64,000 bases of DNA from contig JAUSFE010000050.1 of assembly GCA_030649945.1 (NCBI GenBank), positions 1,859 through 65,858 on the forward strand, read 5' to 3'. This DNA is from Dehalococcoidia bacterium. GTDB taxonomy: Bacteria > Chloroflexota > Dehalococcoidia > SM23-28-2 > RBG-16-64-32. Numbering within the stretch: position 1 is the stretch's first letter; each line of letters starts with the position of its first letter. A model generated the notes under the pieces. That model searched no databases. It was not told the origin of the DNA and saw nothing but the letters and a program-made list of their open reading frames with translations. Made by a program: the position numbers and the translations under genes. Shown here one piece after another: positions 24,814 through 43,301 of the stretch.

Positions 24814-25452
24814 ATGGAGACGCATGAGTTCGGGGACCTGCGGGTGATCAGGTGCGGGCCGCTGGGGCCGTACGGGAATAACGCTTACGCCATCGCGGAC
24901 GAGCGCTCGCGCGAGGCGGTGGCTGTCGATATGCCGTCCGGCAGCGACGAGCTGGTGCGCGCGCTGCAGGGCTTCCGGGTGAAGGCGATCCTGCTGACGC
25001 ACACGCACCCGGACCACTGGGCGGAGTACGACAGCGTGAAGCAGGCGCTGGCGGCCCCCGTGCTCTGCCATCCGGACGAGCGCATTATGCCACGGGAGAA
25101 GAGCGACGGCCCGCTGGCGGACGGCCAGGAGATAGCGGCGGGGCCGTACGTTATCCGCTGCCTGCACACGCCGGGACATACGCCGGGCAGCACCTGCCTG
25201 CTGGTGGAGCGCTTTCTCCTCTCAGGCGACGTGCTGTTCCCGGGCGGGCCGGGGCGCACCCAGACGGCGGACGATCTGCGGCAGTCGATCGCCTCCATCA
25301 CCGGCAAGCTGTACACGCTGCCGGACGAGACGCTGATGCTACCGGGGCACGGAGGCGGCACGACGATCGGCGAGTCCAGGCGGGAGTACGCGGGGTTCGC
25401 CTCGCGTCCGCACGCGGCGGACCTGTGCGGCGACGTGTCCTGGGAGATGTAG
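24814..25452 (+). CDS. MBL-fold hydrolase (hydroxyacylglutathione hydrolase / glyoxalase II-like)
   Basis: Start METHEFGDL with RBS ACGGAGG. Motifs LLTHTHPDH and HTPGHTPGS. Confidence 0.8.
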   Translation: METHEFGDLRVIRCGPLGPYGNNAYAIADERSREAVAVDMPSGSDELVRALQGFRVKAILLTHTHPDHWAEYDSVKQALAAPVLCHPDERIMPREKSDGPLADGQEIAAGPYVIRCLHTPGHTPGSTCLLVERFLLSGDVLFPGGPGRTQTADDLRQSIASITGKLYTLPDETLMLPGHGGGTTIGESRREYAGFASRPHAADLCGDVSWEM

Positions 25453-25649
25453 ACGCCGTCACGCCCTGGCAGGGTGCGGAAGGCCGTGCGACGGGTGGCG
25501 CTGGGGGCGCGGCACCCACCGCCCTGCCCCCGTCCCCGAGCGGCGCCCCTACCGTGCGTAGTTCCGGACGCTGGAACCTGCACCCAACGTGAATCCAGCG
25601 CCAACCGTTCCTAAACCCCGCGGCGACGGCGCCATCGTAGACTGGGCGC

Positions 25650-25880
25650 ATGCGAAACGAAACGATACGAAACCGCCACACGGAACTGGCTCTGGCGCTG
25701 GCCAGCGCCGACCAGCGGTTGCTGGACACGCTGACGCAGCGCCCGCATCTGCTCAACCCCTATCCCAACATCATCACGCGGCTCTCCCGGCGGAGCCGGC
25801 GCTTCCGCCAGCGGTTCGCCGGAGACCGCGAGCTGCGGCGGCAGTTGCTGGGCAGGACGTGGCGGGTGACAGTGCCCTAG
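25650..25880 (+). CDS. possible small hypothetical protein (76 aa), weakly supported
   Basis: ORF in a lower-GC patch of an otherwise repeat-filled intergenic region (family R8 copy at 25490-25560). No recognisable motif. Confidence 0.2.
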   Translation: MRNETIRNRHTELALALASADQRLLDTLTQRPHLLNPYPNIITRLSRRSRRFRQRFAGDRELRRQLLGRTWRVTVP

Positions 25881-26013
25881 CCGCGTTGACCGTGCCCCCG
25901 GCGTAACCTACACTGCAACTCAGGCCAGACGACAGGAAAAGGCCCCGACCTGCCTACCGGCAGGCAGGCAACTCGGGGCCTTGCCTCTTTCAGAGCACAC
26001 TGGCCTGGCCCCA

Positions 26014-27309
26014 ATGACGCAGACTGCAAGCAGCAACGCCCAGGACACCTACCGGCGGACGGTCCTGCCCAACGGCCTCCGCATCCTGACCGCGCCCATG
26101 CCCCATACCCACTCCGTGGCCCTGACGCTGTACGTGGGCACCGGCTCCCGCTACGAGCGGGACGAGGAGGCGGGGGTCTCGCACATCCTTGAGCACATGC
26201 TGTTCAAGGGCACGGAGAAGCGCCCGACGGCGAAAGAGATAGCGGAGGCGGTGGACGGCGTGGGCGGGGTGATCAACGGCGCGACCGACCGCGAGTACAC
26301 GGTGTACTACCTGAAGGTGGCTCGGCCGCACCTGGACCTGGCGCTGGACCTGCTGGTGGAGTTCGTGCGGCGGCCGCTGATTGACGCGCGGGAGATGGAG
26401 AAGGAGCGGCAGGTGGTGCTGGAGGAGCTGGCGATGGTGGCCGACTCGCCGCCGCAGATCGCGGACCTGCTCCTGGACTCCATCCTCTGGCCGGACAACC
26501 CCCTGGGCCGCGACATCGCCGGGACGCCGGAGACGGTGGGCGCCATCAGCCGCGAGGCGGTGCTGGATTACCTGCACGGGCAGTACGTGCCGAACAACAT
26601 CGTGCTGGCGGTGGCCGGGAACATCACGGACGAAGAGATCGTGGAGGCGCTGCGCGCGGCGCTGGGCGACTGGCAGCCGGGCACGCCGTCGTCCTGGGTG
26701 CCTGCGCCCAGCCAAAACGGTGTGCGCTGCGCCGTGCGCTACAAGGCCACGGAGCAGGCCCACATCAGCCTGGCGCTGCCGGGGCTGCCGCTGAACCACC
26801 CGGACCGCCACGCCATCTCGTTCCTCTCGGTGATCCTGGGCGAGGGGATGTCCTCGCGCCTGTTCCTGGAGCTGCGGGAGAAGCGCGGCCTGGTCTACGA
26901 CGTGCACACGTACGTCTCGCAGTTCCTGGACGTGGGCACGTTCAACATCTACACGGGCGTGGACCCGAAGAACGCCGTGGAGGCGCTGGGGGTGGTGCTG
27001 GCGGAGCTGGCGCAGTTGCGCGCGCAGGGCCCGGACAGCGGGGAGCTGACCAAGGCGCGCGAGCTGTCCAAGGGGCGGCTGCTGCTGCGCATGGAGGACA
27101 CGCGGGCGGTGAGCGGCTGGATCGGCGGGCAGGAGCTGTTGCTGGGGAAGGTGCGCGGCGTGGAGGAGGCGGTGGCGGAGATGGACGCGGTGACGCTGGA
27201 GGACCTGCAGCGCGTCTCTCGCGAGCTGCTGGACCCGCGCCAGACCTATCTGGCGGTCGTCGGGCCGTACCGGTCGGACAAGCGGTTCGCGTCGCTCTTG
27301 CCGGCGTAG
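26014..27309 (+). CDS. M16 family zinc peptidase (insulinase/pitrilysin-like)
   Basis: Inverted zinc motif HILEHMLFKG (HxxEH) and downstream E (REYTVYY... region). Start at MTQTASSNAQD. Confidence 0.85.
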   Translation: MTQTASSNAQDTYRRTVLPNGLRILTAPMPHTHSVALTLYVGTGSRYERDEEAGVSHILEHMLFKGTEKRPTAKEIAEAVDGVGGVINGATDREYTVYYLKVARPHLDLALDLLVEFVRRPLIDAREMEKERQVVLEELAMVADSPPQIADLLLDSILWPDNPLGRDIAGTPETVGAISREAVLDYLHGQYVPNNIVLAVAGNITDEEIVEALRAALGDWQPGTPSSWVPAPSQNGVRCAVRYKATEQAHISLALPGLPLNHPDRHAISFLSVILGEGMSSRLFLELREKRGLVYDVHTYVSQFLDVGTFNIYTGVDPKNAVEALGVVLAELAQLRAQGPDSGELTKARELSKGRLLLRMEDTRAVSGWIGGQELLLGKVRGVEEAVAEMDAVTLEDLQRVSRELLDPRQTYLAVVGPYRSDKRFASLLPA

Positions 27310-27358
27310 GCGCGAAGGGCAGTTGACGTGTTTCTGTATTTACGGCTATGCTTGGCTC

Positions 27359-27583
27359 ATGGCTACTAACAAAGCCCGGTTGACCATCGACCTTGAGCCG
27401 CAGCTCCATTCCAGGCTAAAGGTTGTGGCGGCGAAGAAGCGTACAAGCATGCGGGAGTACACAGTCGAGGCGATCGAGCGCCGGCTTGCGGAGGAGCCCG
27501 CCGAGTATCTCACGGCCGAGGCTGAGCCCGTCCTTGCGGAGCTATGGGACAACGATGATGACGCCGTCTACGACGATCTTTAG
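27359..27583 (+). CDS. ribbon-helix-helix (CopG/ParD-like) antitoxin
   Basis: MATNKARLTIDLEPQLHSRLKVVAAKKRTSMREYTVEAIERRL is the RHH pattern. Immediately precedes and overlaps the MazF-like gene. Confidence 0.6.
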   Translation: MATNKARLTIDLEPQLHSRLKVVAAKKRTSMREYTVEAIERRLAEEPAEYLTAEAEPVLAELWDNDDDAVYDDL

Positions 27584-27926
27584 CCGCGGCGATATCGTCC
27601 TCGTCCCATTCCAGTTCACCGATAAGCCCATTGCCAAGGTTCGCCCGGCCGCCGTCGTTAGCTCAACGTCATATCACTCGGCACGGCAAGAGGTGATCAT
27701 TGCGGCGATCACCAGCCGCGTCCGCGATCCGCTGCTCTTCGGCGACCACCTCATTCTCGGCTGGCGGACCGCCGGCCTGCCGAAACCGTCCGTTGTCACC
27801 GCTATCTTGCGCACGGTGAAGCAGGGGATGATCGCGCGCCGGGTGGGCAGGCTGGCGGAAGACGACCTCGCGCACGTGGACGGGCACCTCGCCGTGGCGC
27901 TGGCGCTGACGGCCGCCGCGCGATAA
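27555..27926 (+). CDS. PemK/MazF-family toxin (type II TA endoribonuclease)
   Basis: RGDIVLVPFQFTDKPIAKVRPAAVVSSTSYHSARQEVIIAAITSR is the MazF/PemK signature. The ORF-track start at 27423 is an out-of-context extension. Confidence 0.75.
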   Translation: MMTPSTTIFSRGDIVLVPFQFTDKPIAKVRPAAVVSSTSYHSARQEVIIAAITSRVRDPLLFGDHLILGWRTAGLPKPSVVTAILRTVKQGMIARRVGRLAEDDLAHVDGHLAVALALTAAAR

Positions 27927-27947
27927 CGGGCGCCGGAGCCCCCCGGC

Positions 27948-28003
27948 GGTCGTCGGGCCGTACCGGTCGGACAAGCGGTTCGCGTCGCTCTTGCCGGCGT
28001 AGA
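27948..28003. repeat. about 56-bp direct repeat duplicating the 3' end of the M16 peptidase gene (27250..27309); flanks the RHH-MazF cassette
   Basis: GGTCGTCGGGCCGTACCGGTCGGACAAGCGGTTCGCGTCGCTCTTGCCGGCGTAG occurs at 27250-27309 and again at 27948-28003. Confidence 0.8.
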
Positions 28004-28047
28004 CGTGCCGGCCTCCTGCCGTGCCCGGCTATAATAGAGGCGGCAGC

Positions 28048-28728
28048 GTGAAGACAATCCTCGTCGTAGACGATGAACCGACTCTGGCGGCCACGGTCCG
28101 CTACAACCTGGAGCAGGGCGGCTACCGGGTAATCACCGCTGCAGACGGTGAGTCCGGTCTTTCCCTGGCCCGCTCCGAACGCCCGGATACGATTGTCCTG
28201 GACCTGATGCTGCCCGGGCTGGATGGGCTGGACGTGTGCCGCATCCTGCGCCGGGAGTCCAGCGTGCCCATCCTGATGCTCACGGCCCGCGGTGAAGAGA
28301 CGGACCGTGTGGTGGGACTGGAACTGGGCGCGGACGACTACCTGACGAAGCCCTTCAGCATGCGCGAGCTGCTGGCCCGCGTGCGGGCGCTGCTGCGGCG
28401 CTCTGAGATGGCCACCCAGGTGGATGGCGAAGTAGTGACATGCGGAGATCTGGAAGTGGACGCCGCCCGCCACCAGGTACGCCGGTCCGGGGCTGAAGTC
28501 GCGCTGAAGCCCAAGGAATTCGAGCTCCTGGCGTTCTTGATGCGCAACCGCAGGCGAGTATTCACGCGGGAGCAGCTGCTGAACCAGATCTGGGGCTACG
28601 AGTTCGCCGGGGATACGCGGACAGTGGACGTGCACGTGAGCTGGTTACGCCAGAAGGTTGAGGACAACCCACAACACCCGGCGCTCATCGTTACGGTGCG
28701 CGGCATCGGCTACCGCTTCGACGGATGA
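28048..28728 (+). CDS. OmpR/PhoB-family response regulator (PhoB/PhoP-like, phosphate regulon)
   Basis: GTG start after the -10 TATAAT (28031). Receiver domain (ILVVDDEP...D...LMLPGLDG, K in LTKPF). Winged-helix output. Adjacent HK and pstSCAB-phoU. Confidence 0.85.
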   Translation: MKTILVVDDEPTLAATVRYNLEQGGYRVITAADGESGLSLARSERPDTIVLDLMLPGLDGLDVCRILRRESSVPILMLTARGEETDRVVGLELGADDYLTKPFSMRELLARVRALLRRSEMATQVDGEVVTCGDLEVDAARHQVRRSGAEVALKPKEFELLAFLMRNRRRVFTREQLLNQIWGYEFAGDTRTVDVHVSWLRQKVEDNPQHPALIVTVRGIGYRFDG

Positions 28729-30119
28729 AGTTGCCGGGCAGCCTCCGCGGCCGCAGCGCTGGCACGTACATCGCGCTCGTCGCCGTCGCCTATTCGCTCC
28801 TGGGCGTCTACCTCTCCAGCAAGGTGGAGAGCGGCAACGGTGACGCCCTTGCGCTGGCTCTCCTCGTCGCCTTCCTCGTCACCACCGCCGCCATCATCGT
28901 GGCCGGCCTGGTCCTGGGCCGGGCGGTATCGCGGCAGTTCAGCAGCCTTGCCGATGCCGCGCGCGCTATTGCGAGCGGGGAACTGGATACGCGCCTGGAC
29001 CCCGGGGTGTCCGCGGAGATGGGCGGATCAGCCAACGCCTTCAACGAGATGGCGGGCAGCTTGCAGTCGCTGATCGAGGCCGCATCGCAAGAGCGCAACC
29101 GCCTGCTGGCCTCGCTCAACAGCGCCACCGATGCAATCCTGGCCATAGGCGGAGATGGGCGCGTGGCGTTTGCGAACAGTAGCGCGGAGCTACTCTTCGA
29201 GCGTTCTCAGGCCGAACTTGTGGGCAACCCGCTGGCGTGGGTCCTGCCCAACAAGCAGGTGCTGGACGCGCTGCGGGCCAGCGCCGAAGACGGTCGCAGC
29301 GAAACTCAACTGATTGAGCGGCCGAACCGGCGTTCGTTGCAGGTCATCACCGCGCCGGTCATCGGCGGCGGCGAATGGACGGCGCTCGTCGTCTTCCACG
29401 ACATGACGGAGATGAGCCGCGTGGAGCAGGTGCGGCGGGACTTCATCGCCAACGTCTCGCATGAGCTGCGCACGCCGCTGGCTTCGGTGAAGGCGGTGAT
29501 CGAGACGCTACGCGGCGGGGCGATGAGAGACGAGCGTGTGGCCGCGGACTTCCTTTCACGAGCGGAGACGGAGGTGGACCGGCTGGTGGAGATTGTGGAG
29601 GAGCTGCTGGAGCTCTCACGCATCGAATCCGGGCTGGCGCCTATGGCCCAACAGCCGGTGGACCTGGGCGAGGTGTGCGCGCGAGCCGTGGAACGCCTGC
29701 GGGCGCAGGCGGAGAAGCAGGGCGTGAAGCTGCAGACGGAAGCCGCAACGAGGCTGCCGAACGTGACAGGCGATGCGGAGAGGCTGGAGCGGGCGGTGAT
29801 CAACCTGGTGCACAACGCTATCAAGTTCACGGCGCCCGGCGGCACGGTCACTGTGTCCACATGCCTCCTGGACGGGCGTGTTGCGGTGAGTGTGACGGAC
29901 ACGGGCGTGGGCATAGCGCCGGAGGACGTGCCGCGCATCTTTGAGCGGTTCTACAAGGCGGACCGCGCGCGCCAGGGCGGCGGCACGGGCCTGGGCCTGG
30001 CGGTGGTCAAGCACACCGCGGAAGCGCACGGCGGCACCGTGGCCCTCGAAAGCACACCGGGGGCGGGCTCCACGTTCACGCTCATCCTCCCGGCAACGGC
30101 CGCCTCTGTCCGCGGCTGA
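28725..30119 (+). CDS. sensor histidine kinase (HAMP-PAS-HisKA-HATPase; PhoR-like)
   Basis: H-box NVSHELRTPL; N-box LVHNAIKFT; G-boxes DTGVGI, GGTGLGLAVV; 2 TM + HAMP. Start overlaps the RR stop (ATGA). Confidence 0.85.
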   Translation: MKLPGSLRGRSAGTYIALVAVAYSLLGVYLSSKVESGNGDALALALLVAFLVTTAAIIVAGLVLGRAVSRQFSSLADAARAIASGELDTRLDPGVSAEMGGSANAFNEMAGSLQSLIEAASQERNRLLASLNSATDAILAIGGDGRVAFANSSAELLFERSQAELVGNPLAWVLPNKQVLDALRASAEDGRSETQLIERPNRRSLQVITAPVIGGGEWTALVVFHDMTEMSRVEQVRRDFIANVSHELRTPLASVKAVIETLRGGAMRDERVAADFLSRAETEVDRLVEIVEELLELSRIESGLAPMAQQPVDLGEVCARAVERLRAQAEKQGVKLQTEAATRLPNVTGDAERLERAVINLVHNAIKFTAPGGTVTVSTCLLDGRVAVSVTDTGVGIAPEDVPRIFERFYKADRARQGGGTGLGLAVVKHTAEAHGGTVALESTPGAGSTFTLILPATAASVRG

Positions 30120-30137
30120 CTTTCGGCGCTGCTCAAG

Positions 30138-30180
30138 TTTTACACTACGTTAACCGGCGTTAACGGGCGCTTAAAGGCGG
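30138..30180. promoter_or_regulatory. candidate PHO box: TTTACA followed by 10-11-bp-phased direct repeats of GTTAAC (CGTTAACCGG CGTTAACGGG CGCTTAAAGG)
   Basis: Nearly identical copies at 30778-30820 (upstream of the phosphatase gene) and 32103-32140 (about 45 bp upstream of pstS). Confidence 0.45.
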
Positions 30181-30268
30181 TTATCTACGATGGGGTCAGG
30201 ATGTGACCATGGTGGCAGAGAGCAGACAGCCGACCGCACCGAAGACAACGCCTCGCCCTGGGTTTCGA

Positions 30269-30697
30269 ATGGAGAAGACCAAGAGGATTGCGCTGATCGC
30301 GCACGACAACAAGAAGCCAGACCTGCTGGAGTGGGCGACGTTCAACAGACATACCCTTTCGCAACACGAGTTGTTTGCCACCGGAACGACAGGAACGATC
30401 CTCGCGACTGAACTTGGCGTCGAAATCACCAGATTTCGAAGCGGGCCGTTGGGAGGTGACCAGCAAGTCGGGGCGAAAATCACAGAAGGGGAAATTGACT
30501 TCGTAGTCTTCTTTTGGGATCCGCTCGAACCCCACCCCCATGATGTGGATGTCAAAGCCCTGCTTCGAATCGCTGTTGTTTACAACATCCCCATTGCCTG
30601 CAACCGGGCGTCAGCCGACTTCCTAATTTCCTCGCCTTTGATGTGTGCTGAATACGAGCGTTCTGTGCCTTCGGCGCTTCTCGCGCAGCCAGAATAG
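30269..30697 (+). CDS. mgsA: methylglyoxal synthase
   Basis: IALIAHDNKKPDLLEWA, LFATGTTG, GPLGGDQQVGA, DFVVFFWDPLEPHPHDVDVKALLRIAVVYNIPIACN. Start taken at MEKTKRIALIAHD. Markedly lower GC (about 52%) than the surrounding sequence. Confidence 0.8.
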   Translation: MEKTKRIALIAHDNKKPDLLEWATFNRHTLSQHELFATGTTGTILATELGVEITRFRSGPLGGDQQVGAKITEGEIDFVVFFWDPLEPHPHDVDVKALLRIAVVYNIPIACNRASADFLISSPLMCAEYERSVPSALLAQPE

Positions 30698-30777
30698 CAG
30701 GGGGCCGTCGTGGATTCCGCAGCTGGTGATACCTGTGGCCCCACTCCCGCGCTAGCATCCAACTTTCTCGCAAGACT

Positions 30778-30820
30778 TTTACATTACGTTAACCGGCGTT
30801 AACACGCGCTTAAAGCCACG
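30778..30820. promoter_or_regulatory. second copy of the candidate PHO box (TTTACATTACGTTAACCGGCGTTAACACGCGCTTAAAG)
   Basis: Direct repeat of the 30138-30180 motif, upstream of a long leader and the histidine phosphatase gene. Confidence 0.45.
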
Positions 30821-31121
30821 TGGCTAACATCAGTCCTAGAGGGAAGGGATTGATAACAAACGCAAGGAGCCAGCGGCAGTCCAGGACAGAACCGTTCAAG
30901 CAGGCTTCTGGCGCGCCACACAGCAGACTCGCGGGGGGAGAGCACCCCCAAGCTCTCCCGATGAGACCCGGTAGCTCCGGCGGTGGTGCGAGCCACCGCC
31001 GGAGCTCGTTCCGGTCAGCCACAGCAGGGGAAAGTGATGGCACGCGCCTGGCGAAGCTGATCCGCCGGCGCATCCTGATCTTATTGCCGGCGCAGCATGT
31101 GCGCACAGAAGGAGAGCTGCA

Positions 31122-31853
31122 ATGACCCGCACAGCCGTGGCCACGCGTGGTCCAGCCACAAGCGACGCCGTGTACTCCGTGGCGGTAGACGAAGCGCTGG
31201 AGCACTTATTCGGCCTGGCGGACACAGCTACCACGGAGCTGGTGCTGGTCCGTCACGCAGAGCCAGACCACAACCGCGCGCTGAGGGCTGGGGGCGCGTT
31301 CGATCCAGCGCTGAGCGAACGCGGGCGCTGCCAGGCGATGCGGCTGGCGATGCGCCTGCGGCCCGCTGACATAGCCGCCATCTACACTTCCACCGCCCGC
31401 GCCGCAGTGGAGACCGCGGCGGTGGTAGCCGCGGCGAAAGACATGCCCATGATCCGGGCGCCGCAGCTACGAGACCCGGCTGTGCATGGCTGCGCTGCAA
31501 GAGCAAAGGAGAGCGACCCTCAGAGGCTGGTGGCGGAGGCGACCGTGCGGTTCCTCAACCGGCCGCGCTGGGACGCCCTGCCGGGGCTGGAGCGCTCCAA
31601 GCAGTTCCGGCACCGCGTGGTGCAGGCACTGGAAGGCGTAGTCTCGCATCACTCCGGGAAGACGGTGGTTGTGGTCACGCACCAGGGCGTGATCAACGCG
31701 TATCTGAGCATGATTCTGGACATCCCGCGCGACGTGTTCTTCCTGCCTGACTACACTTCACTTTCGGTCGTACGGATCCTGTCGGACCGGTACGGAGTGC
31801 GGCATTTGAATGATACGGCCCACCTGCTCCCCGCAGGCAACCCGCGCGGATGA
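31122..31853 (+). CDS. histidine phosphatase (phosphoglycerate mutase superfamily; PhoE-like broad-specificity phosphatase candidate)
   Basis: RHG-type catalytic motif LVLVRHAEPDHN; C-terminal H in VVVTHQGVI; 243 aa. Confidence 0.75.
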   Translation: MTRTAVATRGPATSDAVYSVAVDEALEHLFGLADTATTELVLVRHAEPDHNRALRAGGAFDPALSERGRCQAMRLAMRLRPADIAAIYTSTARAAVETAAVVAAAKDMPMIRAPQLRDPAVHGCAARAKESDPQRLVAEATVRFLNRPRWDALPGLERSKQFRHRVVQALEGVVSHHSGKTVVVVTHQGVINAYLSMILDIPRDVFFLPDYTSLSVVRILSDRYGVRHLNDTAHLLPAGNPRG

Positions 31854-36662: not shown

Positions 36663-36875
36663 CGGCGCGCGGCAGGGAACTGGGAGTCAGGAGCTGGGAA
36701 CTAGGAGCCGCCCCGCCCGCGCACGCCGTCACGCGCAGAACGCCGTAGGGGCGCACGGCGTTCGCCCCTACGTTTGCGTTGGGCCGTCGCCTGCCGCGTA
36801 AGGCCGGGCGGTTGACAGCGAGTGGGCCGGCGGTATGCTTGTAACGCGTCCCGCTTCGGCGCATGGAGGGCCACC

Positions 36876-38243
36876 GTGGAACAACAGATCCGCTTCTGCA
36901 CAACAACTGACGGCGTGCGCATCGCCTACGGCACCGTGGGCCAGGGGCCGCCGCTGATCCGCGTGCTGGGCTGGTTCACTCACCTGGAGTTCGAGTGGGA
37001 GAACCCCCGCTGGCGCCGTCTTTACGAAGGCATGGCGGACCGCTTCACCTACATCCGCTACGACGGAAGGGGGATGGGTCTTTCCGACAGGGACGTGACC
37101 GACTTCTCGTCGGATGCCTTCGTGCATGATCTGGAAGCGGTAGTCGATGCCACGGGTTTTGAGAGGGTCGCGCTCTACGGCATCTCTCAGGGAGGTCCTA
37201 CGGCCATCCTCTACGCTCTGCGCCACCCGGAGCGCGTCAGCCACCTCATAATCTACGGCTCCGCCGTTCGGTCTACCTGGCCTGAAGAGCAACAGGAGAT
37301 GATGCTGTCCCTAATCCGCCAAGGCTGGGGCAGCGACGTCCCTGCTCACCGTCAGTTCTTCACTGGCCTGTTCATGCCTGACGGTGATATGGAGGCGATT
37401 CAGGCGTTCAACGAGATGCAGCGGGTGTCGGCCTCGGCCGAGAACGTTGCGGCGATGCTCACGCCGCCGCCGGAACTCCCTCCATTCGATCTTAGAGAAT
37501 TGCTGCCTCAAGTCGCTGTGCCAACCCTCGTGATCCACCGGCGCGGCGACGCCATCGTCCCCTTCGAGGCAGGACGCGAGATCGCCGCCGGCATTCCCGG
37601 CGCCCGTTTCCTCCCTCTGGAGGGTAGGAACCACGCCGCCCTTGCCGACGCGGATCAGCCGGTCATGGAGATTATGGCCAAGGCCATCGCCGACTTCGTG
37701 GGCGAAGGCCAGCAGGCCGTCACCGCGGACACGCCCTCCGGGATGGTCACCATCCTCTTCACGGACATGGAGGGCTCTACCACCCTCACTCAGCGGCTGG
37801 GGGACGCCAGGGCGCAGGAGGTGCTGCGCGCCCACAACACCATCGTCCGCGAGGCGCTGAAGGCGCACGGGGGCAGCGAAATCAAGCACACCGGCGACGG
37901 CGTCATGGCCTCGTTCCCAACGGCCTCCGGCGCGCTGGAGTGCGCCATCGCCGTGCAGCTGGCCTTCGCCGCGCACAACGAGTCGGCCGAGACGCCCGTC
38001 CGCGTGCGCATCGGCCTGAACGCGGGCGAGCCGGTGGCGGAGGAAGAGGACCTGTTCGGCACGGCCGTGCAGCTAGCCGCCCGTGTATGCGCCCAGGCTG
38101 AGCCGGGCCGGATCCTGGTGCCGGACGGCGTGCGTCACCTGGTGGCCGGCAAGGGGTTCCTGTTCTCGGACCAGGGCGACGTCGTCCTGCGGGGCTTCGA
38201 GGACCCCGTGCGGCTCTACGAGGTGCGCTGGGAGGAGGCCTAG
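36876..38243 (+). CDS. alpha/beta-hydrolase domain fused to class III adenylyl/guanylyl cyclase catalytic domain (LipJ/Rv1900c-like), copy A
   Basis: GTG start with RBS GGAGGG. Hydrolase nucleophile elbow GISQGG. CHD motifs FTDMEGST (metal Asp), EIKHTGDG (Lys + Asp), GLNAGEP (Asn), and R in GRILV. Confidence 0.8.
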   Translation: MEQQIRFCTTTDGVRIAYGTVGQGPPLIRVLGWFTHLEFEWENPRWRRLYEGMADRFTYIRYDGRGMGLSDRDVTDFSSDAFVHDLEAVVDATGFERVALYGISQGGPTAILYALRHPERVSHLIIYGSAVRSTWPEEQQEMMLSLIRQGWGSDVPAHRQFFTGLFMPDGDMEAIQAFNEMQRVSASAENVAAMLTPPPELPPFDLRELLPQVAVPTLVIHRRGDAIVPFEAGREIAAGIPGARFLPLEGRNHAALADADQPVMEIMAKAIADFVGEGQQAVTADTPSGMVTILFTDMEGSTTLTQRLGDARAQEVLRAHNTIVREALKAHGGSEIKHTGDGVMASFPTASGALECAIAVQLAFAAHNESAETPVRVRIGLNAGEPVAEEEDLFGTAVQLAARVCAQAEPGRILVPDGVRHLVAGKGFLFSDQGDVVLRGFEDPVRLYEVRWEEA

Positions 38244-38245
38244 CC

Positions 38246-39592
38246 ATGGAACAACAGATCCGCTTCTGCACAACCTCCGACGGGGTGCGCATCGCCTACG
38301 CCACTGCAGGCCAGGGCCCGCCGCTGGTGCTGATCACCGCTTGGGTGGGTCACCTTCAGTTCGAATGGAGCCACGCCGAGACCAAGGCGTTCTACGAAGG
38401 CTTGGCGAACGGGCGGCTACTCGTTCGCTTTGACAAGCGTGGCACCGGCCTAAGCGACAGGCAGGCAGAAGACTTCTCCGTAGAGGCGCGCCTGCGCGAT
38501 CTGGAGGCGGTGGTCGATGCCCTGCGCCTGAAACGCTTTGCCCTCATGGGCTTTTCCGAGAGCGGGCCCACGGCCATAATCTACGCAGCCCGCCATCCTG
38601 AGCGGGTGACGAACCTCGTCATCTATGGCTCCTACCACCGCTGGCCGTACCCTGCAGGGGCCGCCAATCCCGTCATGGCCCTGATCCGCTCGCAGTGGGG
38701 CATGGGATCAGCGGCGCTCTCTGCCATCTTCGTTCCCTCCGGCGATCCCGCCCAGGTAGCGTGGTGGACGGAGTTGCAGCGGGTCTCGGCCTCGCCAGAG
38801 AGTGCTGCCTCTATCTTCGAAGTGAACACCGGGCTTGATGTGACCTCCGTTCTCAGTGACATCCGGGCCCCGGCCCTCGTCATTCACCGGAACAACGATA
38901 CTGTCTGCCCCTTCGATGTCGCTCGCGAGATGGCTGCCCTCATCCCGGCTGCCCGTTTCGAGCCCCTGGAAGGCGATATCCATCCCCCCATGTTCGGCGA
39001 CACTGCCGCCGTCCTCAACGCCGTAGATTCCCTGCTGCCCAGCGGCGCGCGCCGCAGGCAGGCCGTCACCGCGGGCACGCCCTCCGGCCTCGTCACCATT
39101 CTCTACACCGACATGGAGGGCTCTACCCCCCTGACCCAGCGACTGGGCGACGCCAAAGCGCAGGAGGTGCTGCGCGCGCACAACACCATCGTCCGCGAGG
39201 CCCTCAAGGCGCACGGCGGGTCCGAGATCAAGCACACCGGCGACGGCGTCATGGCCTCCTTCCCAACGGCCTCCGGCGCGCTGGAGTGCGCCATCGCCGT
39301 GCAGCAGGGCTTCGCCGCGCACAACGAGTCGGCTGAGACGCCCGTCCGCGTGCGCATCGGCCTGAACGCGGGCGAGCCGGTGGCGGAGGAAGAGGACCTG
39401 TTCGGCACGGCCGTGCAGCTGGCGGCGCGCGTCTGCGCCAGGGCGGAGCCGGGGCAGGTCCTGGCCTCGAACGTGGTGCGTGAGCTGGCCGCCGGCAAGG
39501 GGTTCCTGTTCTCCGACCAGGGCGACGTGGTCCTGCGCGGCTTCGAGGATCCCGTGCGGCTGTACGAGGTGCGCTGGCAAGCGGCGGGCTGA
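38246..39592 (+). CDS. alpha/beta-hydrolase + class III cyclase fusion, copy B
   Basis: Starts 2 nt after the copy A stop. Hydrolase elbow GFSESG. The CHD region is about 95% identical to copy A (LYTDMEGSTPLTQRLGDAKAQEVLRAHNTIVREALKAHGGSEIKHTGDGVMASF...). Confidence 0.8.
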   Translation: MEQQIRFCTTSDGVRIAYATAGQGPPLVLITAWVGHLQFEWSHAETKAFYEGLANGRLLVRFDKRGTGLSDRQAEDFSVEARLRDLEAVVDALRLKRFALMGFSESGPTAIIYAARHPERVTNLVIYGSYHRWPYPAGAANPVMALIRSQWGMGSAALSAIFVPSGDPAQVAWWTELQRVSASPESAASIFEVNTGLDVTSVLSDIRAPALVIHRNNDTVCPFDVAREMAALIPAARFEPLEGDIHPPMFGDTAAVLNAVDSLLPSGARRRQAVTAGTPSGLVTILYTDMEGSTPLTQRLGDAKAQEVLRAHNTIVREALKAHGGSEIKHTGDGVMASFPTASGALECAIAVQQGFAAHNESAETPVRVRIGLNAGEPVAEEEDLFGTAVQLAARVCARAEPGQVLASNVVRELAAGKGFLFSDQGDVVLRGFEDPVRLYEVRWQAAG

Positions 39593-41028
39593 TGGACGCG
39601 CCGCCCATCCAGTACGCGAAGACCGCCGACGGCGTCAGCATCGCCTTCTGGACGCTCGGCGAAGGCCCCCCGCTCGTGATCCTGCCCAACCTGACCGCCA
39701 GTCACGTGCAGGTGGAGTGGGAGTGGGACGTCCGCCGGATCGCCTACCAGCGGCTGGCGCAGCACGCCACGGTCATCCGCTACGATTGTCGCGGCCTGGG
39801 GCTGTCTCAGCGCGATTGCCCCGACTTCTCCGCCGAGGCAGGGGGCCTCGACCTGGAGGCCGTCGTTGACCGCCTCGGCCTGGAGCGCTTCGCCATCTAC
39901 GGCTCCGACTCCACGGGCGACGTAACTTTCGCCTTCCCCGCCGGCCATCCGGAGCGGGTGAGTCACTTGATCATCGGCGTGCCGCATATCCAGCGCGGCT
40001 TCCGCCGCCGCCTGGCCGCCGTTCAGCCGCTCATTGATCAGGACTGGGAGCTGTTCATCGAAATCTTTCCGCGGCTCGCGGGGGGTTGGGACAGCCCCCA
40101 GGCGGCCCAGGTGCCGGCTGTGATGATGGGTACGCACACGCCCTCTAGCTTCCGCTCGGCTCTCGACGCGATGGCCGCCTTCTCGCCGGAGCCCTACCTG
40201 GCGGCTATTCAGGCGCCGTCGTTGATCATGCACCCGCTGCAGAGCGGCCGGGACAACCGGACAGCGCGAGTGCTGGCGGGCGCTATCGCCGGCGCTCACA
40301 TGGTAGGAATCCCGGGCTGGCCGCTCGCCTCAACACTCAACGAGACGGCCGTTGCGGCCATCCTGGACTTCATCAATACCGCGCCGGCCGCGCCGGGCCA
40401 CGCGATCCCCGCGCCGCAGATAGACATCAGCGCCGTCCGCACCATCGTCTTCACCGATGTCGAAGGCTCCACGGCGCTCAATGAGCGGCTCGGCGACGAG
40501 GGCGCCCGGGAGGTCCTGCGCGAGCACGAGCGACTGACGCGCGAGGCGCTCGCGTCGCACGGCGGCTCCGAGGTGAAGGCGATGGGCGACGGCTTCATGG
40601 CCTGGTTCCCATCGGCGACGCGCGCTGTGGAGTGCGCCATCGCCTTACAGCAAGCGTTTGACGAACGTAATCGGAAGGTAGGGGCGCAGCAACATGAGCC
40701 AAGTAGGAAGGATATCGAATCGTCTTCCGATGTTGCTGCGCCCCTACGCACCGCCTCCCGGCCACGCCTCGACACGCCCGAACCGATCCGCGTCCGTATC
40801 GGCATCAACGCCGGGGAGCCAATTGCCGAAGGAGACGACCTCTTCGGCGCATCGGTGATCACGAGCGCCCGCATCACCGCGCAGGCGAAGGGCGGCCAGA
40901 TCCTGGCTTCGGACGTGGTGCGCCAGCTCCTCGCCGGCAAGGGGTTCCTCTTCTCCGACCAGGGCGACGTCGTCCTGCGCGGCTTCGAGGACCCCGTGCG
41001 CCTGTACGAGGTGCGCTGGCGCCAGTAG
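39592..41028 (+). CDS. alpha/beta-hydrolase + class III cyclase fusion, copy C (carries an in-frame REP-element insertion in the CHD)
   Basis: ATG overlaps the copy B stop (TGATG). CHD motifs FTDVEGST, EVKAMGDGFMAWF, GINAGEP. The hydrolase GxSxG motif is degenerate (YGSDSTG). Extra 30 aa (KVGAQQHEPSRKDIESSSDVAAPLRTASRPRLDTPEP) relative to A/B/D. Confidence 0.8.
   Translation: MDAPPIQYAKTADGVSIAFWTLGEGPPLVILPNLTASHVQVEWEWDVRRIAYQRLAQHATVIRYDCRGLGLSQRDCPDFSAEAGGLDLEAVVDRLGLERFAIYGSDSTGDVTFAFPAGHPERVSHLIIGVPHIQRGFRRRLAAVQPLIDQDWELFIEIFPRLAGGWDSPQAAQVPAVMMGTHTPSSFRSALDAMAAFSPEPYLAAIQAPSLIMHPLQSGRDNRTARVLAGAIAGAHMVGIPGWPLASTLNETAVAAILDFINTAPAAPGHAIPAPQIDISAVRTIVFTDVEGSTALNERLGDEGAREVLREHERLTREALASHGGSEVKAMGDGFMAWFPSATRAVECAIALQQAFDERNRKVGAQQHEPSRKDIESSSDVAAPLRTASRPRLDTPEPIRVRIGINAGEPIAEGDDLFGASVITSARITAQAKGGQILASDVVRQLLAGKGFLFSDQGDVVLRGFEDPVRLYEVRWRQ
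40683..40752. mobile_element. REP-like palindromic element (GTAGGGGCGCAGCA...TGCTGCGCCCCTAC, long loop) inserted in-frame inside cyclase copy C
   Basis: Same palindrome arms as the intergenic REP copies at 19843, 22568, 43255 etc. Replaces the short ESAETP linker present in copies A and B. Confidence 0.7.
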
Positions 41029-41131
41029 GGGCGAACCGCCGTTCGCCCCTACGTTTGCCTTGCGTCTTCGCCTGCCTCCACCGCACCCGGCCGGTAGCCG
41101 CGCGGCATTTGACACGGTTGCGACCAGGAGT

Positions 41132-42535
41132 ATGATTCACGGTGCGGAGTGGCGTGAAAACGAAGTGAACCCATCGATCCAGTACGTGCACACGGCTGAT
41201 GGGGTCGCCATCGCCTACTGGGCCCTGAACGAGGGGCTGCCGCTGGTCTATGCGCCCATTATCCCCTTCAGCCACATTCAGCTGGAGTGGCAGATCCCGC
41301 AGTGCCGCCGCTGGTACGAGCAGCTGGCCGGCCACCGGCAGTTGATCCGCTATGACGCACGCGGCTGCGGCCTCTCGGAGCGCGACGTCTCGGACTTCTC
41401 GCTGGACGGGCTCGTCCTGGACCTGGAAGCGGTGGCAGACGGCTTGCACCTGGACAACTTCGCGCTGTTCGCCTCGTCTGACGCCTCGATGATGGCGATC
41501 GCTTACGCGGCGCGGCACCCGGATCGCGTGTCGCACCTGATCCTCTGGAGCGCGTGGGCGCGGCGAGAGGACGTCTCGCGGTCCGCGCAGGCGCGCTCGC
41601 TGCGCGCCGTCCTGGAGCAGGACTGGACCATCTACACGGAGACCGTGGCGCGCGTGCTGATGGGCTGGGCTGCGGAAGGGCCGGCGCGCGAGTTCGCGGC
41701 CTTTTACCGGGCGTGCACCAGCGCGGACGCCGTTCGCGCGCTGGCGGCGTCCGCCTACGAGACCGACGTGTCGGCTCTACTCCCCCAGATCAGGTGCCCG
41801 ACCCTGGTGGTGCACCGCAGCCACATCCCCGGCGTGGGCCTGCCCGTTGTGCGCGACCTGGCGGCCCGCATCCCCAACGCCCGCCTGGCGCTCCTGGAGG
41901 GGTTGTCTCCGCTGCCCTTCTTGGAAGACACGCAAGCGGTTGTACGGGCCATTCAGGTGTTCTTGGGGGAAGAGCCGGAAGACGATGCGGCCGCGCCGGA
42001 TGTCGCGGGCCGGGCGATCGCCAGCGCACCCGTCACGATCCTCTTCACGGACATGCAGAGCTCCACCGCCATGACGCAGCGCCTGGGGGACGCGCGGGCC
42101 CAGGACGTGCTGCACGTGCACAACAGCATCGTGCGGGCCGCGCTGAAGCGGCTGGACGGGTCGGAGGTCAAGCACACGGGGGACGGCATCATGGCCTCGT
42201 TCGCTTCGGCGACGAGAGGGCTGGAGTGCGCCGTCGCCATCCAGCGGGCGCTGGCCACCCACAACGCCTCTGCGCCGGACGGCGCGATCCACGTGCGTAT
42301 CGGCCTGAACGCCGGCGAGCCCGTGGCGGAGGAGTCGGACCTCTTCGGAACGGCAGTCCAGATCGCCGCGCGCGTCTGCGAGCATGCGGAGCCGGACCAG
42401 ATCCTGGTGTCGAACGTCGTGCGCGAGCTGGCGTCCGGGAAGGGGTTCCTGTTCTCGGACCGCGGCGACAGTGTGTTGCGCGGCTTCGAGGACCCGGTGC
42501 GGCTGTTCGAGGTGAGGTGGTCGCCCGGCGACTAA
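41132..42535 (+). CDS. alpha/beta-hydrolase + class III cyclase fusion, copy D (most divergent)
   Basis: Start approximate (internal ATG giving MIHGAEWRENEV...; the ORF-track TTG at 41060 lies within a REP hairpin). CHD motifs FTDMQSST, EVKHTGDGIMASF, GLNAGEP. Hydrolase nucleophile motif lost (FASSDAS). Confidence 0.75.
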   Translation: MIHGAEWRENEVNPSIQYVHTADGVAIAYWALNEGLPLVYAPIIPFSHIQLEWQIPQCRRWYEQLAGHRQLIRYDARGCGLSERDVSDFSLDGLVLDLEAVADGLHLDNFALFASSDASMMAIAYAARHPDRVSHLILWSAWARREDVSRSAQARSLRAVLEQDWTIYTETVARVLMGWAAEGPAREFAAFYRACTSADAVRALAASAYETDVSALLPQIRCPTLVVHRSHIPGVGLPVVRDLAARIPNARLALLEGLSPLPFLEDTQAVVRAIQVFLGEEPEDDAAAPDVAGRAIASAPVTILFTDMQSSTAMTQRLGDARAQDVLHVHNSIVRAALKRLDGSEVKHTGDGIMASFASATRGLECAVAIQRALATHNASAPDGAIHVRIGLNAGEPVAEESDLFGTAVQIAARVCEHAEPDQILVSNVVRELASGKGFLFSDRGDSVLRGFEDPVRLFEVRWSPGD

Positions 42536-43067: not shown

Positions 43068-43301
43068 GCGCAGCTCCGGCGTCGCCCCCCACCTCCGCCC
43101 CGCTGGAAGCCTGAAGGCATCCGCTACGTTCGCCGGCGGCAACGCGACCGCCCCGCCGGCGCGCGGCCGTCACGCCCGGAAACGCCGTAGGGGCGAACGG
43201 CGTTCGCCCAGAAACGCCGGACGGCCAAACGCGGTTCGCCCACACAAACGCCGTAGGGGCGCAGCATGCTGCGCCCCTACGTTCGTGTCGCGAGTCTCGC
43301 G

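What the first reader, a model, noticed from the sequence alone, without database searches (positions are those of the whole stretch)
27250..28003. RHH-MazF toxin-antitoxin cassette inserted at the 3' end of the M16 peptidase gene with a 56-bp target duplication
The last 56 bp of the peptidase gene, including its stop codon, are repeated verbatim immediately after the MazF-like gene. The repeated segment is GGTCGTCGGGCCGTACCGGTCGGACAAGCGGTTCGCGTCGCTCTTGCCGGCGTAG.

The antitoxin start lies 50 bp after the first copy. The two copies are therefore flanking direct repeats of a 640-bp insertion carrying only the TA pair. The 56-bp length is unusual for a transposon TSD, and suggests an insertion by recombination at this site, or the remains of an integrative element att site.
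Basis: seen in the sequence. Interest (0 to 1): 0.6.

Follow-up and report, generated by a model that had tools for sequence, protein, structure and literature searches.

The report
Toxin-antitoxin cassette with long target duplication
A 635-bp toxin-antitoxin gene pair with no mobility gene has been inserted right behind a peptidase gene, duplicating that gene's last 58 bases; related cassettes leave the same footprint behind two other housekeeping genes, which gives a testable clue to how such cassettes enter genomes.

Summary
An exact 58-bp direct repeat (27252-27309 and 27945-28002) flanks a 635-bp cassette. The cassette holds only a promoter, a ParD/RHH antitoxin and a PemK/MazF toxin. 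A close relative (L120) has one repeat copy running straight from the peptidase 3' end into the response-regulator promoter, so it is an empty site.

The cassette moved horizontally. Against a second lineage (L001-4), third-codon divergence is 0.06-0.07 in the cassette and 0.35 in the peptidase.

The footprint recurs. Homologous cassettes lie 6-17 nt behind the stop codon of co-oriented genes. In 8 distinct loci, behind three unrelated genes (M16 peptidase, argS, an SDR), a 35-90 nt copy of that gene's 3' end follows the toxin. One argS locus has two cassettes and three copies.

Where the copies differ, 17 of 24 differences are at third codon positions. This suggests the second copy evolved as coding DNA in another lineage.

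I found no integrase, inverted repeats or tandem array. The closest known phenomenon is "insertion with long target duplication", described for restriction-modification genes. The most likely mechanism is host recombination that uses the carried 3'-end copy as homology; this is inferred, not shown.

The parts
26014..27309 (+). M16 (insulinase-type) peptidase gene, the target of the insertion. It is intact through its TAG stop. An alternative TTG start lies at 25981.
   Evidence: Pfam Peptidase_M16 (E 1.5e-38) and Peptidase_M16_C (E 1.8e-43); ORF list.
27252..27309 (+). R1, the first copy of the 58-bp exact direct repeat. It is the functional 3' end of the peptidase gene (AVVGPYRSDKRFASLLPA plus TAG).
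27310..27944 (+). The inserted cassette, 635 bp. This is all the sequence between the two repeat copies. It is 92-97% identical to the cassette of lineage L001-4, whereas the flanks are 78-83% identical.
   Evidence: GC is 64.3% against a window mean of 68.2% (13th percentile, not significant).
27323..27352 (+). Sigma-70-like promoter of the cassette (TTGACG, 18 nt, TATGCT), starting 13 nt after the peptidase stop. The spacer holds the conserved TTTCTGTA(A/T)(A/T)TAC operator-like motif shared by related cassettes.
   Evidence: Promoter scan; alignment of upstream regions of about 25 related cassettes. Promoter function is inferred.
27359..27583 (+). Antitoxin gene, 74 aa, ParD-like (a ribbon-helix-helix family by established knowledge of ParD).
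   Evidence: Pfam ParD 28.7 bits, above the 27.3 cut-off. It is 98.6% aa identical in L001-4.
27555..27926 (+). Toxin gene, 123 aa, PemK/MazF family. It overlaps the antitoxin gene by 29 nt.
   Evidence: Pfam PemK_toxin E 2.5e-13. It is identical to the NCBI protein P0001, annotated 'type II toxin-antitoxin system PemK/MazF family toxin [Dehalococcoidia bacterium]'.
27931..27948 (+). Small hairpin (CGCCGG, AGCCCC, CCGGCG) that straddles the cassette/R2 junction. The GGC at 27945-27947 is present both at the cassette end (as seen in L001-4) and in the peptidase, so it is 3 nt of junction microhomology.
Evidence: Read from the sequence.
27945..28002 (+). R2, the second copy of the 58-bp repeat. 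It is a non-coding duplicate of the peptidase 3' end including TAG, and it starts 18 nt after the toxin stop.
   Evidence: Logan unitig L121 breaks inside it at k-1 from its end.
28003..28047 (+). Native peptidase-RR intergenic region with TATAAT at 28026-28031. It is contiguous with a single repeat copy in the empty-site relative L120.
28048..28728 (+). OmpR-type response-regulator gene, the downstream neighbour of the insertion site. It is followed by a histidine kinase gene (28725-30119).
   Evidence: Pfam Response_reg and Trans_reg_C; gene list of L121.

Best explanation
Window 27310-27944 is a horizontally acquired, recombinase-less type II toxin-antitoxin cassette. It consists of its own promoter and operator, a ParD/RHH antitoxin and a MazF/PemK toxin. 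It was inserted immediately after the stop codon of the M16 peptidase gene together with a second copy of the gene's last 55-58 nt. This is an 'insertion with long target duplication'.

It belongs to a family of Chloroflexota cassettes that repeatedly sit 6-17 nt behind the stop codon of a co-oriented housekeeping gene and are followed by a copy of that gene's 3' end.

Proposed mechanism (inferred): no dedicated transposase or integrase is involved. The cassette travels physically linked to a piece of the 3' end of the gene it last sat behind. That piece serves as the homology with which host recombination places it behind the orthologous gene of the next genome. This could be a Campbell-type single crossover of a circularised cassette-plus-R unit, or one-sided homologous recombination with a microhomology join at the other end (HFIR-like). 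Either route leaves gene-R1-cassette-R2. New target genes are reached rarely, by illegitimate joining. Flanking direct repeats invite deletion, so mainly addictive cargo (TA or RM modules) would survive.

Shown: the repeat, the cargo, the empty site, cassette/flank incongruence, recurrence at three genes, one array, and coding-type divergence of R2.

Inferred: the recombination route, any circular form, and stabilisation by addiction.
For: 1. Exact 58-bp repeat, with 0 expected by chance.
2. The cargo is only ParD-like and PemK/MazF genes.
3. L120, a close relative, has a single repeat copy joining the peptidase 3' end to the RR promoter.
4. Window versus L001-4: third-position divergence is 0.35 in the peptidase, 0.067 in the antitoxin and 0.056 in the toxin. 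Nucleotide identity rises from about 80% to 92-97% at the peptidase stop.
5. Up-versus-down local alignments in about 24 distinct homologous loci gave a clean null maximum of 15.5 in 652 pairs. The hits were: window 58.5; L001/2 40-43; L086 42.5; L098 34.5; L099 65; L100 34; L104 16.5, above the null maximum; L091 15.0, just under the null maximum (null fraction 0.0015). They lie behind the M16 peptidase, argS (DALR_1) and an SDR gene.
6. L099 carries argS-R1-[ParD/MazF]-R2-[MazE/AbrB-like ORF]-R3. L098 has the same downstream gene directly after R2. Each cassette is therefore associated with one additional R copy.
7. R1/R2 differences fall 17 of 24 at third codon positions, with frame and stop kept (P = 2e-4 against 1/3; P = 0.02 against 0.48). 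R2 therefore diverged as coding DNA, not as a decaying local duplicate.
8. L104's R2 is chimeric. Its left part resembles the L098/L100-type copy and its right part resembles its own R1.
9. In 1.16 Mb of fetched loci, only these TA loci have a short-range direct repeat whose first copy ends at the stop of a long ORF.
10. I found no TIRs, no integrase or transposase among the neighbours, and no viral or plasmid copies.
Against: - The route is not observed: no circular junction, tandem form or read-level evidence is available.
- In the window the two copies are identical. They say nothing about a foreign origin and fit a de novo duplication equally well.
- The window and L001-4 share the same cassette right end but join the peptidase at different positions (about -58 and about -94). 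A carried-repeat model then needs a 36-nt deletion or two independent captures.
- No donor-derived tract is visible in the upstream genes, and R1 of the window and of L001 are only 81% identical. This is awkward for a simple HFIR model.
- About two thirds of related cassettes (for example L085, L088, L092, L095-97) have no detectable second copy.
- Why the cassette always abuts the stop codon at each newly acquired target is unexplained.
- The empty site shows only 69 nt of the peptidase, because the contig starts there.
- All sequences are metagenomic assemblies.
Confidence: 0.55

Rival explanations
1. De novo long target duplication at each insertion. The cassette alone is the mobile unit. 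It is joined into a widely staggered break, or by replication template switching or end-joining, at the gene's end, so the host's own 55-95 nt are copied on both sides. This is what was proposed for restriction-modification genes. Diverged copies in other loci would arise later, through allelic replacement of the upstream gene or cassette by ordinary homologous recombination between strains.
For: - The window copies are 100% identical.
- The same cassette end is joined at two different peptidase positions in two lineages.
- There are 3 nt of microhomology (GGC) at the window's right junction.
- Repeat lengths vary from 35 to 90 nt.
- Mosaic cassettes between 95%-identical argS flanks show that later recombination does shuffle these loci.
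- There is a precedent in RM systems (PMC2853133).
Against: - R2 of L001-4 and L086 differs from R1 mostly at third codon positions and keeps frame and stop, which in situ decay does not predict.
- R1/R2 divergence in L001-4 (17%) far exceeds the cassette's divergence from the window copy (3-6%).
- No enzyme making 55-95-nt staggered cuts is known, and MazF is an RNase (established knowledge of the family).
- It does not explain why the left junction is at the stop codon behind several different genes.
Confidence: 0.22
2. Site-specific integration by a recombinase acting in trans. R1 and R2 would be attL and attR of a miniature integrative element (CIME-like, or the remnant of a larger island that lost its integrase). 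The element would supply a surrogate 3' end to the target gene, and the tandem array in L099 would be att-site accretion.
For: - Integration into the 3' end of a gene with the end restored, flanking direct repeats of tens of bp, and tandem accretion are classic for integrase-driven islands (established knowledge).
- The L099 array has three repeat copies.
- The R2-left boundary is constant among L098, L099 and L100.
Against: - No integrase or recombinase lies inside any of about 25 cassettes, or among called neighbours of the window, L085, L086, L088 or L121.
- Homologous cassettes carrying the repeat use at least three unrelated repeat sequences (peptidase, argS, SDR), which a sequence-specific integrase would not share.
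- Repeat length differs at the same target.
- Switch points between R1-like and foreign-like sequence vary.
- There are no matches in viral contigs or plasmids.
Confidence: 0.13
3. Ancient single insertion inherited vertically, with the window's identical copies produced by recent gene conversion. Nothing would be currently mobile, and the repeat would be a fossil.
For: - Cassette and flank diverge roughly together in the SDR pair L086/L091 (88% versus 85-86%) and in L104 versus L098-100.
- R2 is decayed in L091 and L104.
Against: - In window versus L001-4, third-position divergence is 5-6 times lower in the cassette than in the peptidase.
- A close relative has an empty site.
- Gene conversion between copies that would have been about 83% identical, with runs of 15 nt or less, is a poor RecA substrate (inference).
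- R2 of L086 has changed far less than a neutral fossil should.
Confidence: 0.07
4. Assembly artefact or mixed population. The chromosome would carry peptidase-R-RR, the cassette-plus-R would exist as a separate (circular or otherwise located) molecule, and the assembler would have threaded them together through the 58-bp repeat.
For: - The window is a MAG contig.
- A 58-bp repeat exceeds common k-mer sizes.
- The Logan unitig breaks in the repeat.
- Four related contigs (L001-4) all end inside R2, and L120 starts 11 nt before R. This hints at branching assembly graphs.
Against: - In L001-4, L086, L098 and L100 the two copies are diverged, so the gene-R1-cassette-R2 path is assembled unambiguously in independent samples and assemblers.
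- L086, L098 and L099 run through both copies into downstream genes.
Confidence: 0.03

Closest known systems
'Insertion with long target duplication' of restriction-modification gene complexes (Nobusato et al. 2000 Gene 259:99; Furuta, Abe & Kobayashi 2010, PMC2853133)
   Same: - A small addiction-type module with no mobility gene.
- Flanking direct repeats longer than 30 bp, of variable length, that exist once in an empty-site relative.
- Two H. influenzae cases there also overlap the 3' end of a gene.
- The mechanism is unknown.
- Repeats can drive amplification or loss.
   Different: - The cargo here is a type II TA pair whose toxin family is an RNase, so the DNA double-strand breakage that those authors suggested as the common cause cannot come from the cargo.
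- The left junction is always at a stop codon.
- One homologous cassette family shows the footprint behind three genes.
- Arrays occur.
- Second copies show coding-type divergence, which points to a carried copy rather than a fresh duplication.
- I found no paper in the held library describing this for TA cassettes.
Cis-mobilisable elements (CIMEs) and tandem accretion at att sites of integrative elements (from memory: Pavlovic et al. 2004; Bellanger et al. 2011)
   Same: - Non-autonomous DNA flanked by direct repeats at the 3' end of a gene.
- Arrays separated by repeat copies.
   Different: - No integrase is present anywhere nearby.
- The repeats are the 3' ends of at least three unrelated genes.
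- Repeat length and switch points vary.
- The elements are only about 0.6 kb.
Homology-facilitated illegitimate recombination during natural transformation (from memory: de Vries & Wackernagel 2002; Prudhomme et al. 2002)
   Same: - One homologous anchor plus a microhomology join inserts foreign DNA without mobility genes.
- The window's right junction has 3 nt of microhomology.
- Lineages sharing the peptidase differ in the downstream gene (RR versus hydrolase-cyclase). That is the one-sided-homology situation.
   Different: - HFIR usually deletes recipient DNA rather than duplicating it.
- No donor tract is visible in the anchor gene.
- The same cassette end recurs in two lineages.
pdif modules of Acinetobacter plasmids and Neisseria 'minimal mobile elements' (from memory: Blackwell & Hall 2017; Saunders & Snyder 2007)
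   Same: - Small recombinase-less modules, often TA pairs.
- They are moved by host recombination functions between conserved flanks.
   Different: - pdif modules are bounded by XerC/D sites in inverted orientation on plasmids.
- MMEs move by double crossover in both flanking genes without duplication.
- Here the flanks are direct copies of the target gene's own 3' end on chromosomes.
Chromosomal type II TA loci inserted between housekeeping genes in E. coli (relA-mazEF-mazG, dinB-yafNO, folA-ccdO157-apaH), reviewed by Fraikin et al. 2020, PMC7167474
   Same: - TA pairs sit between or behind housekeeping genes.
- They are absent from sister strains.
- The insertion sites are plastic hot spots.
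   Different: [quoted passage not shown] The present loci carry an explicit junction footprint.

Membership tests
Type II toxin-antitoxin system, MazF/PemK toxin with RHH (ParD-like) antitoxin | The toxin belongs to the PemK/MazF family. | tested here: met
   Pfam PF02452 E 2.5e-13, 50.6 bits against a 23.1 cut-off. There are 63 homologues, all carrying PF02452.
Type II toxin-antitoxin system, MazF/PemK toxin with RHH (ParD-like) antitoxin | A small DNA-binding antitoxin is encoded immediately upstream, in one operon. | tested here: met
   The 74-aa ORF matches Pfam ParD (28.7 bits against 27.3). The two genes overlap by 29 nt. The same pairing occurs in about 25 related loci.
Type II toxin-antitoxin system, MazF/PemK toxin with RHH (ParD-like) antitoxin | Own promoter with an operator for autoregulation. 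| tested here: inconclusive
   A promoter-like site lies at 27323-27352, and a conserved TTTCTGTAAATAC-type motif sits between the hexamers across loci. Binding was not tested.
Type II toxin-antitoxin system, MazF/PemK toxin with RHH (ParD-like) antitoxin | The toxin arrests growth and the antitoxin neutralises it. | not testable with these tools
   This needs expression experiments.
Insertion with long target duplication (criteria of Furuta et al. 2010) | The insert holds the addiction module and no mobility gene, and is shorter than 20 kb. | tested here: met
   The insert is 635 bp and carries only the two TA genes.
Insertion with long target duplication (criteria of Furuta et al. 2010) | Flanking direct repeat longer than 30 bp. 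| tested here: met
   The repeat is 58 bp and exact.
Insertion with long target duplication (criteria of Furuta et al. 2010) | The repeat sequence is present once at an empty site in a related genome. | tested here: met
   L120 has a single copy between the peptidase coding end and the RR promoter. However, only 69 nt of the peptidase are on the contig.
Insertion with long target duplication (criteria of Furuta et al. 2010) | The cargo is a restriction-modification system. | tested here: not met
   The cargo is a TA pair, so this is a variant of the phenomenon rather than a member of the described set.
Site-specific integrative element / CIME | An integrase in the element, or a cognate integrase and a fixed att core. 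| tested here: not met
   No recombinase domain is found in the element or its neighbours. Repeat sequences, lengths and switch points vary. An integrase elsewhere in the genome cannot be excluded.
DNA transposon / MITE | Terminal inverted repeats and a short fixed-length TSD. | tested here: not met
   There are no terminal inverted repeats. The duplication is 58 bp here and 35-90 nt in other loci.
Integron gene cassette | An attC hairpin site at the cassette end and an integron integrase/attI platform. | tested here: not met
   The 3' element is a copy of the target gene's coding end, not an imperfect palindrome. No integrase is nearby.
Diversity-generating retroelement (VR/TR pair at a gene's 3' end) | A reverse transcriptase and adenine-specific VR/TR differences. 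| tested here: not met
   No RT is present. The copies are identical here. In L086 and L002 the differences are at third codon positions, not at adenines of the downstream copy.

The most novel reading that the evidence does not exclude
These loci reveal a general, recombinase-independent way for toxin-antitoxin (and other small addictive or defence) cassettes to spread. The cassette carries a short copy of the 3' end of the housekeeping gene it last sat behind, as a portable homology arm. It integrates behind the orthologous gene of a new host by host recombination. It can accumulate in arrays at such genes (for example argS). It is kept, despite the deletion-prone flanking repeats, by its own addiction. 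This would unify the RM 'long target duplication' cases and answer how orphan chromosomal TA modules move.
Probability: 0.3. Interest if true: 0.8.

Novelty: new variant of a known kind. Interest (0 to 1): 0.6.

Why it matters
A 2020 review (PMC7167474) states that how chromosomal TA modules move between hosts and integrate is still unelucidated. These loci supply explicit junction footprints for one cassette family:

- insertion at the stop codon;
- long, variable copies of the target's 3' end;
- xenologous second copies;
- an array.

The toxin family is an RNase. The footprint therefore cannot depend on DNA cleavage by the cargo, which was the idea proposed for the analogous RM insertions. 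That shifts attention to host recombination, and to survivorship of addictive cargo between deletion-prone repeats.

The hypothesis is directly testable by read-level analysis, by a genome-wide survey and by transformation experiments. The TA cassette itself is ordinary.

Tried and rejected
- **Terminal inverted repeats or MITE.** None found.
- **Tandem array.** None.
- **Known RNA families in 25000-31500.** None relevant.
- **Integrase or transposase near the site.** None in the Pfam scans or in the called genes of L085, L086, L088 and L121.
- **Phage or plasmid carriage.** No viral contig encodes a relative, and there is no plasmid DNA match.
- **TAG-specific targeting.** All repeat-bearing targets end in TAG. 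However, TAG is the commonest stop in this window (24 of 49 rough gene calls), and the peptidase of empty-site relatives also ends in TAG. I rejected this idea.
- **Compositional anomaly.** The cassette GC of 64.3% is only at the 13th percentile of window segments, so it is not usable as evidence.
- **DGR (VR/TR).** Rejected, because there is no RT and no adenine pattern.
- **Donor tract in the upstream gene, as an HFIR test.** The identity profiles are too noisy and show no discontinuity, so the result is inconclusive.
- **R2 as a carrier of Pho-box-like sites for the RR promoter.** By eye there is no resemblance to the GTTAAC repeats near mgsA. I did not pursue this.
- **Exact-protein look-ups.** Look-ups of the window's own toxin and peptidase found no contig.
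- **More distant RR homologues (74% identity).** They sit behind other genes, so they give no empty site.
- **Closest species-representative genome with this peptidase.** L005 (68% identity) has no TA but a different downstream gene. It is an empty site only relative to L095 and L103.
- **Mine et al. 2009 on ccdO157.** The paper is not held.
Full report
**Observation**

There is no third copy at up to 3 mismatches, and none is expected in shuffles. Identity extends 3 nt further left, so the exact direct repeat is 58 bp: R1 at 27252-27309 and R2 at 27945-28002, with a period of 693 bp.

R1 is the functional end, including the TAG stop, of an intact M16 peptidase gene. Between the copies lie 635 bp (27310-27944) containing:
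- a sigma-70-like promoter (27323-27352);
- a 74-aa ParD-like antitoxin (27359-27583);
- an overlapping 123-aa PemK/MazF toxin (27555-27926).

After R2 come the native intergenic region and an OmpR-type response regulator and kinase.

There is no tandem array and there are no terminal inverted repeats. No Rfam family matches near the locus; the only hit in 25000-31500 is a sub-threshold CRISPR-repeat match at 31401-31440. The toxin is identical to an NCBI protein from a Dehalococcoidia MAG.

A Logan unitig from SRR13727527 (L121) is 100% identical to the window and begins 30 nt (k-1) before the end of R2. That is the break a repeat with two continuations produces.

**Is it an insertion?**

Three results say yes.

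- L120 is a metagenome contig whose RR is 96% identical, with 94.7% nt identity over the RR-HK region. It begins with in-frame peptidase coding sequence (THLAVVGPYRSEKRFAALLPA plus stop) and runs directly into the same RR promoter region. It therefore has one repeat copy and no TA. Only 69 nt of the peptidase are visible.
- A second lineage, seen in four independent assemblies (L001-4), has peptidase-antitoxin-toxin at the same place. Its peptidase is 77% aa identical to the window's and has third-codon divergence of 0.35. Its antitoxin is 98.6% aa identical (0.067) and its toxin has third-codon divergence of 0.056.
- Nucleotide differences drop from about 9-10 per 50 nt to 1-2 per 50 nt within about 25 nt of the peptidase stop, and rise again at the cassette's right end.

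The cassette is therefore much younger than the split of its hosts, which means it moved horizontally into the same site. Its GC content (64.3% against 68.2%) is not distinctive.

**The footprint recurs**

In L001-4 the toxin is followed, after the same cassette end (...CCCCCGGC), by a longer copy of the peptidase end (at least 71 nt; the contigs end there). That copy is diverged (83-84% identity) and starts about 36 nt further upstream in the gene than the window's R2.

I then fetched contexts of toxin homologues with 53-70% identity. In every locus where the upstream gene is visible, the cassette is co-oriented with it. In nearly all of them its -35 box lies 6-17 nt after that gene's stop; L096 has a longer spacer of about 40 nt.

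I aligned the 200 nt before the antitoxin against the 200 nt after the toxin. The null came from mismatched loci in different contexts and had a maximum of 15.5 in 652 pairs. Hits were found for the window (58.5), L001/2 (40-43), L086 (42.5), L098 (34.5), L099 (65), L100 (34) and L104 (16.5), all above the null maximum. L091 (15.0) lies just under it, with a null fraction of 0.0015.

The duplicated segments are the 3' ends, stop codon included, of three unrelated genes:
- the M16 peptidase;
- arginyl-tRNA synthetase (the DALR_1 domain ending at the last residue);
- a short-chain dehydrogenase.

Other cassettes of the family have no detectable second copy. Some sit behind the peptidase (L095, L096/L103), some behind an MBL-fold gene (L085, L092, L097) and some behind recG (L088/89).

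In 1.16 Mb of fetched loci, the only short-range direct repeats whose first copy ends at the stop of a long ORF are these TA loci.

**An array**

L099 reads argS-R1-[ParD/MazF cassette]-R2 (70 nt)-[74-aa MazE/AbrB-like ORF]-R3. R3 is about 36 nt and its stop is mutated to TAC. A downstream gene follows, and in L098 that same gene follows R2 directly. Each cassette is therefore associated with one additional copy of the argS end.

Three strains with 94-95% identical argS (L098, L099, L100) have different sequence after R2. Their cassettes are mosaic: toxin identity is 73% or 97% depending on the pair, while the promoter and R2 are 95-99% identical. The site is a recombining hot spot.

**What the copies say about mechanism**

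Where R1 and R2 differ (L002, L086, L099), 17 of 24 differences are at third codon positions. R2 keeps the reading frame, nearly the same peptide and the stop codon. This gives P = 2e-4 against random positions. It gives P = 0.02 against a live copy plus a decaying copy.

In L001-4, R1/R2 divergence (about 17%) far exceeds the cassette's divergence from the window copy (3-6%). These second copies therefore look like 3' ends that evolved inside functional genes of other lineages and were then brought next to the resident gene. They do not look like fresh local duplications left to decay.

L104's R2 is chimeric. Its left part resembles the L098/L100-type copy and its right part resembles L104's own R1. 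L100's R2 is identical to its own R1 over the last 34 nt but not over the left part. The variable switch points point to homologous exchange within the repeat, not to a fixed crossover.

In the window the copies are identical, which is uninformative on this point. The right junction shows 3 nt of microhomology (GGC), which hints at an illegitimate join.

**Best explanation and its limits**

I conclude that the locus is a recombinase-less TA cassette inserted with a long target duplication.

I favour, at moderate confidence, a homology-guided route run by host recombination. In this route the cassette travels linked to a piece of the 3' end of the gene it sat behind, and that piece targets it to the orthologous gene. 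The crossover could be Campbell-type, from a circular cassette-plus-R unit. Alternatively it could be one-sided homologous recombination with a microhomology join. The second option is plausible because lineages sharing the peptidase differ downstream: RR in the window and L120, hydrolase-cyclase in L005, L095 and L103. Retargeting to a new gene would be a rare illegitimate event.

Direct repeats invite precise deletion, so addictive cargo should be what persists. That would explain why this footprint is known for RM systems and now appears with a TA pair.

The following are not shown:
- any circular or tandem intermediate;
- the polarity, meaning which copy is foreign;
- why the left junction is at the stop codon behind each target;
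- whether the window/L001 difference in junction position is a 36-nt deletion or two separate events.

A de novo duplication followed by later inter-strain recombination remains a serious rival. An integrase acting in trans is less likely, because at least three unrelated repeat sequences are used and no recombinase lies nearby. An assembly artefact is unlikely, because diverged copies are assembled unambiguously in independent samples.

**Comparison with what is known**

The closest described phenomenon is 'insertion with long target duplication' of restriction-modification genes (Nobusato 2000; Furuta et al. 2010, PMC2853133). It shares the absence of mobility genes, direct repeats longer than 30 bp and of variable length, and an empty site with one copy. 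Its mechanism is unknown and was suggested to depend on DNA breakage by the restriction enzyme.

All of those criteria except the cargo type are met here. The cargo is a MazF-family toxin, which is an RNase by family knowledge, so breakage by the cargo cannot be the cause.

Searches of the held literature found no description of this footprint for TA cassettes. A 2020 review states that how TA systems move and integrate is unelucidated (PMC7167474).

CIME/att-site accretion, HFIR, pdif modules and Neisseria minimal mobile elements are partial analogues, recalled from memory. None fits all the features.

**Verdict**

The TA pair itself is ordinary. The recurrent junction architecture is a new variant of a known but poorly understood insertion mode, and it offers a concrete handle on TA mobility. 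I score interest at 0.6.

Noticed in passing
window 30138-30176 and 30777-30815: Two 39-nt, relatively AT-rich direct repeats (92% identical) flank the methylglyoxal-synthase-like gene (30203-30697) just downstream of the kinase gene. Each contains CGTTAACCGGCGTTAACG, that is GTTAAC twice with an 11-nt period. They may be binding sites for the adjacent OmpR-type regulator, which sits next to pst-like genes. The same pair is present in L121.
   Followed up: partly
L099 1236-1500 (with R2 at 1149-1218 and R3 at 1463-1498): A second, unrelated mini-cassette lies behind argS. It is a 74-aa ORF with a weak MazE/AbrB-type match (E 0.009), has no toxin partner, and is followed by a third, decayed copy of the argS 3' end. 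The next gene (1591-2550) has a weak Mrr_cat restriction-endonuclease-like match.
   Followed up: partly
window 36822-42535: Four tandem paralogous genes encode alpha/beta-hydrolase plus adenylate/guanylate-cyclase fusion proteins (repeat families D1, D2 and D8). The same gene family sits directly behind the M16 peptidase in L005 (no TA) and behind the TA cassette in L095 and L103.
   Followed up: partly
window 725-1379; also 3308-3425, 6475-6614, 25476-25552, 36739-36767, 43181-43241: GC-rich REP-like intergenic repeats share GCGCCCCTAC(G)-type cores, including a 223-nt unit repeated about three times at 725-1379. Similar CCCCTAC motifs follow the toxin gene in L085 and L088.
   Followed up: no
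window 27555-27926 versus L001 2202-2573: The two toxin alleles differ at 10 first, 6 second and 7 third codon positions (13 aa changes), whereas the antitoxins differ at 0/1/5. The toxin seems to be under relaxed or diversifying selection.
   Followed up: no
L001-L004 contig ends; L120 contig start: Four independent assemblies of the sister lineage all stop within 20 nt of each other inside the second peptidase-end copy. The empty-site contig L120 starts 11 nt before the repeat. This suggests branching assembly graphs, meaning population polymorphism, at this junction.
   Followed up: partly
L098 4367-4385 and L100 3846-3863: The second argS-end copy of two strains shares a 19-20-nt insertion (GCCGTGGGCGGGCAGGC...). 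The insertion is complementary to the start of the same copy (GCCTGCCGCC), so it creates a hairpin inside the duplicated segment.
   Followed up: no
L094 841-900: Immediately after the toxin stop there is a run of heptamer repeats (GACGGCT/GACAGCT, about 7 copies).
   Followed up: no
L003 1-79 and 700-778: A 79-nt exact repeat lies between the contig start and an internal peptidase segment. It is probably a MEGAHIT end artefact.
   Followed up: no
window 31401-31440 (- strand): There is a weak Rfam CRISPR-DR20 match (26.5 bits, below the 42-bit gathering score, E 0.027). It is a single copy and probably due to chance.
   Followed up: no
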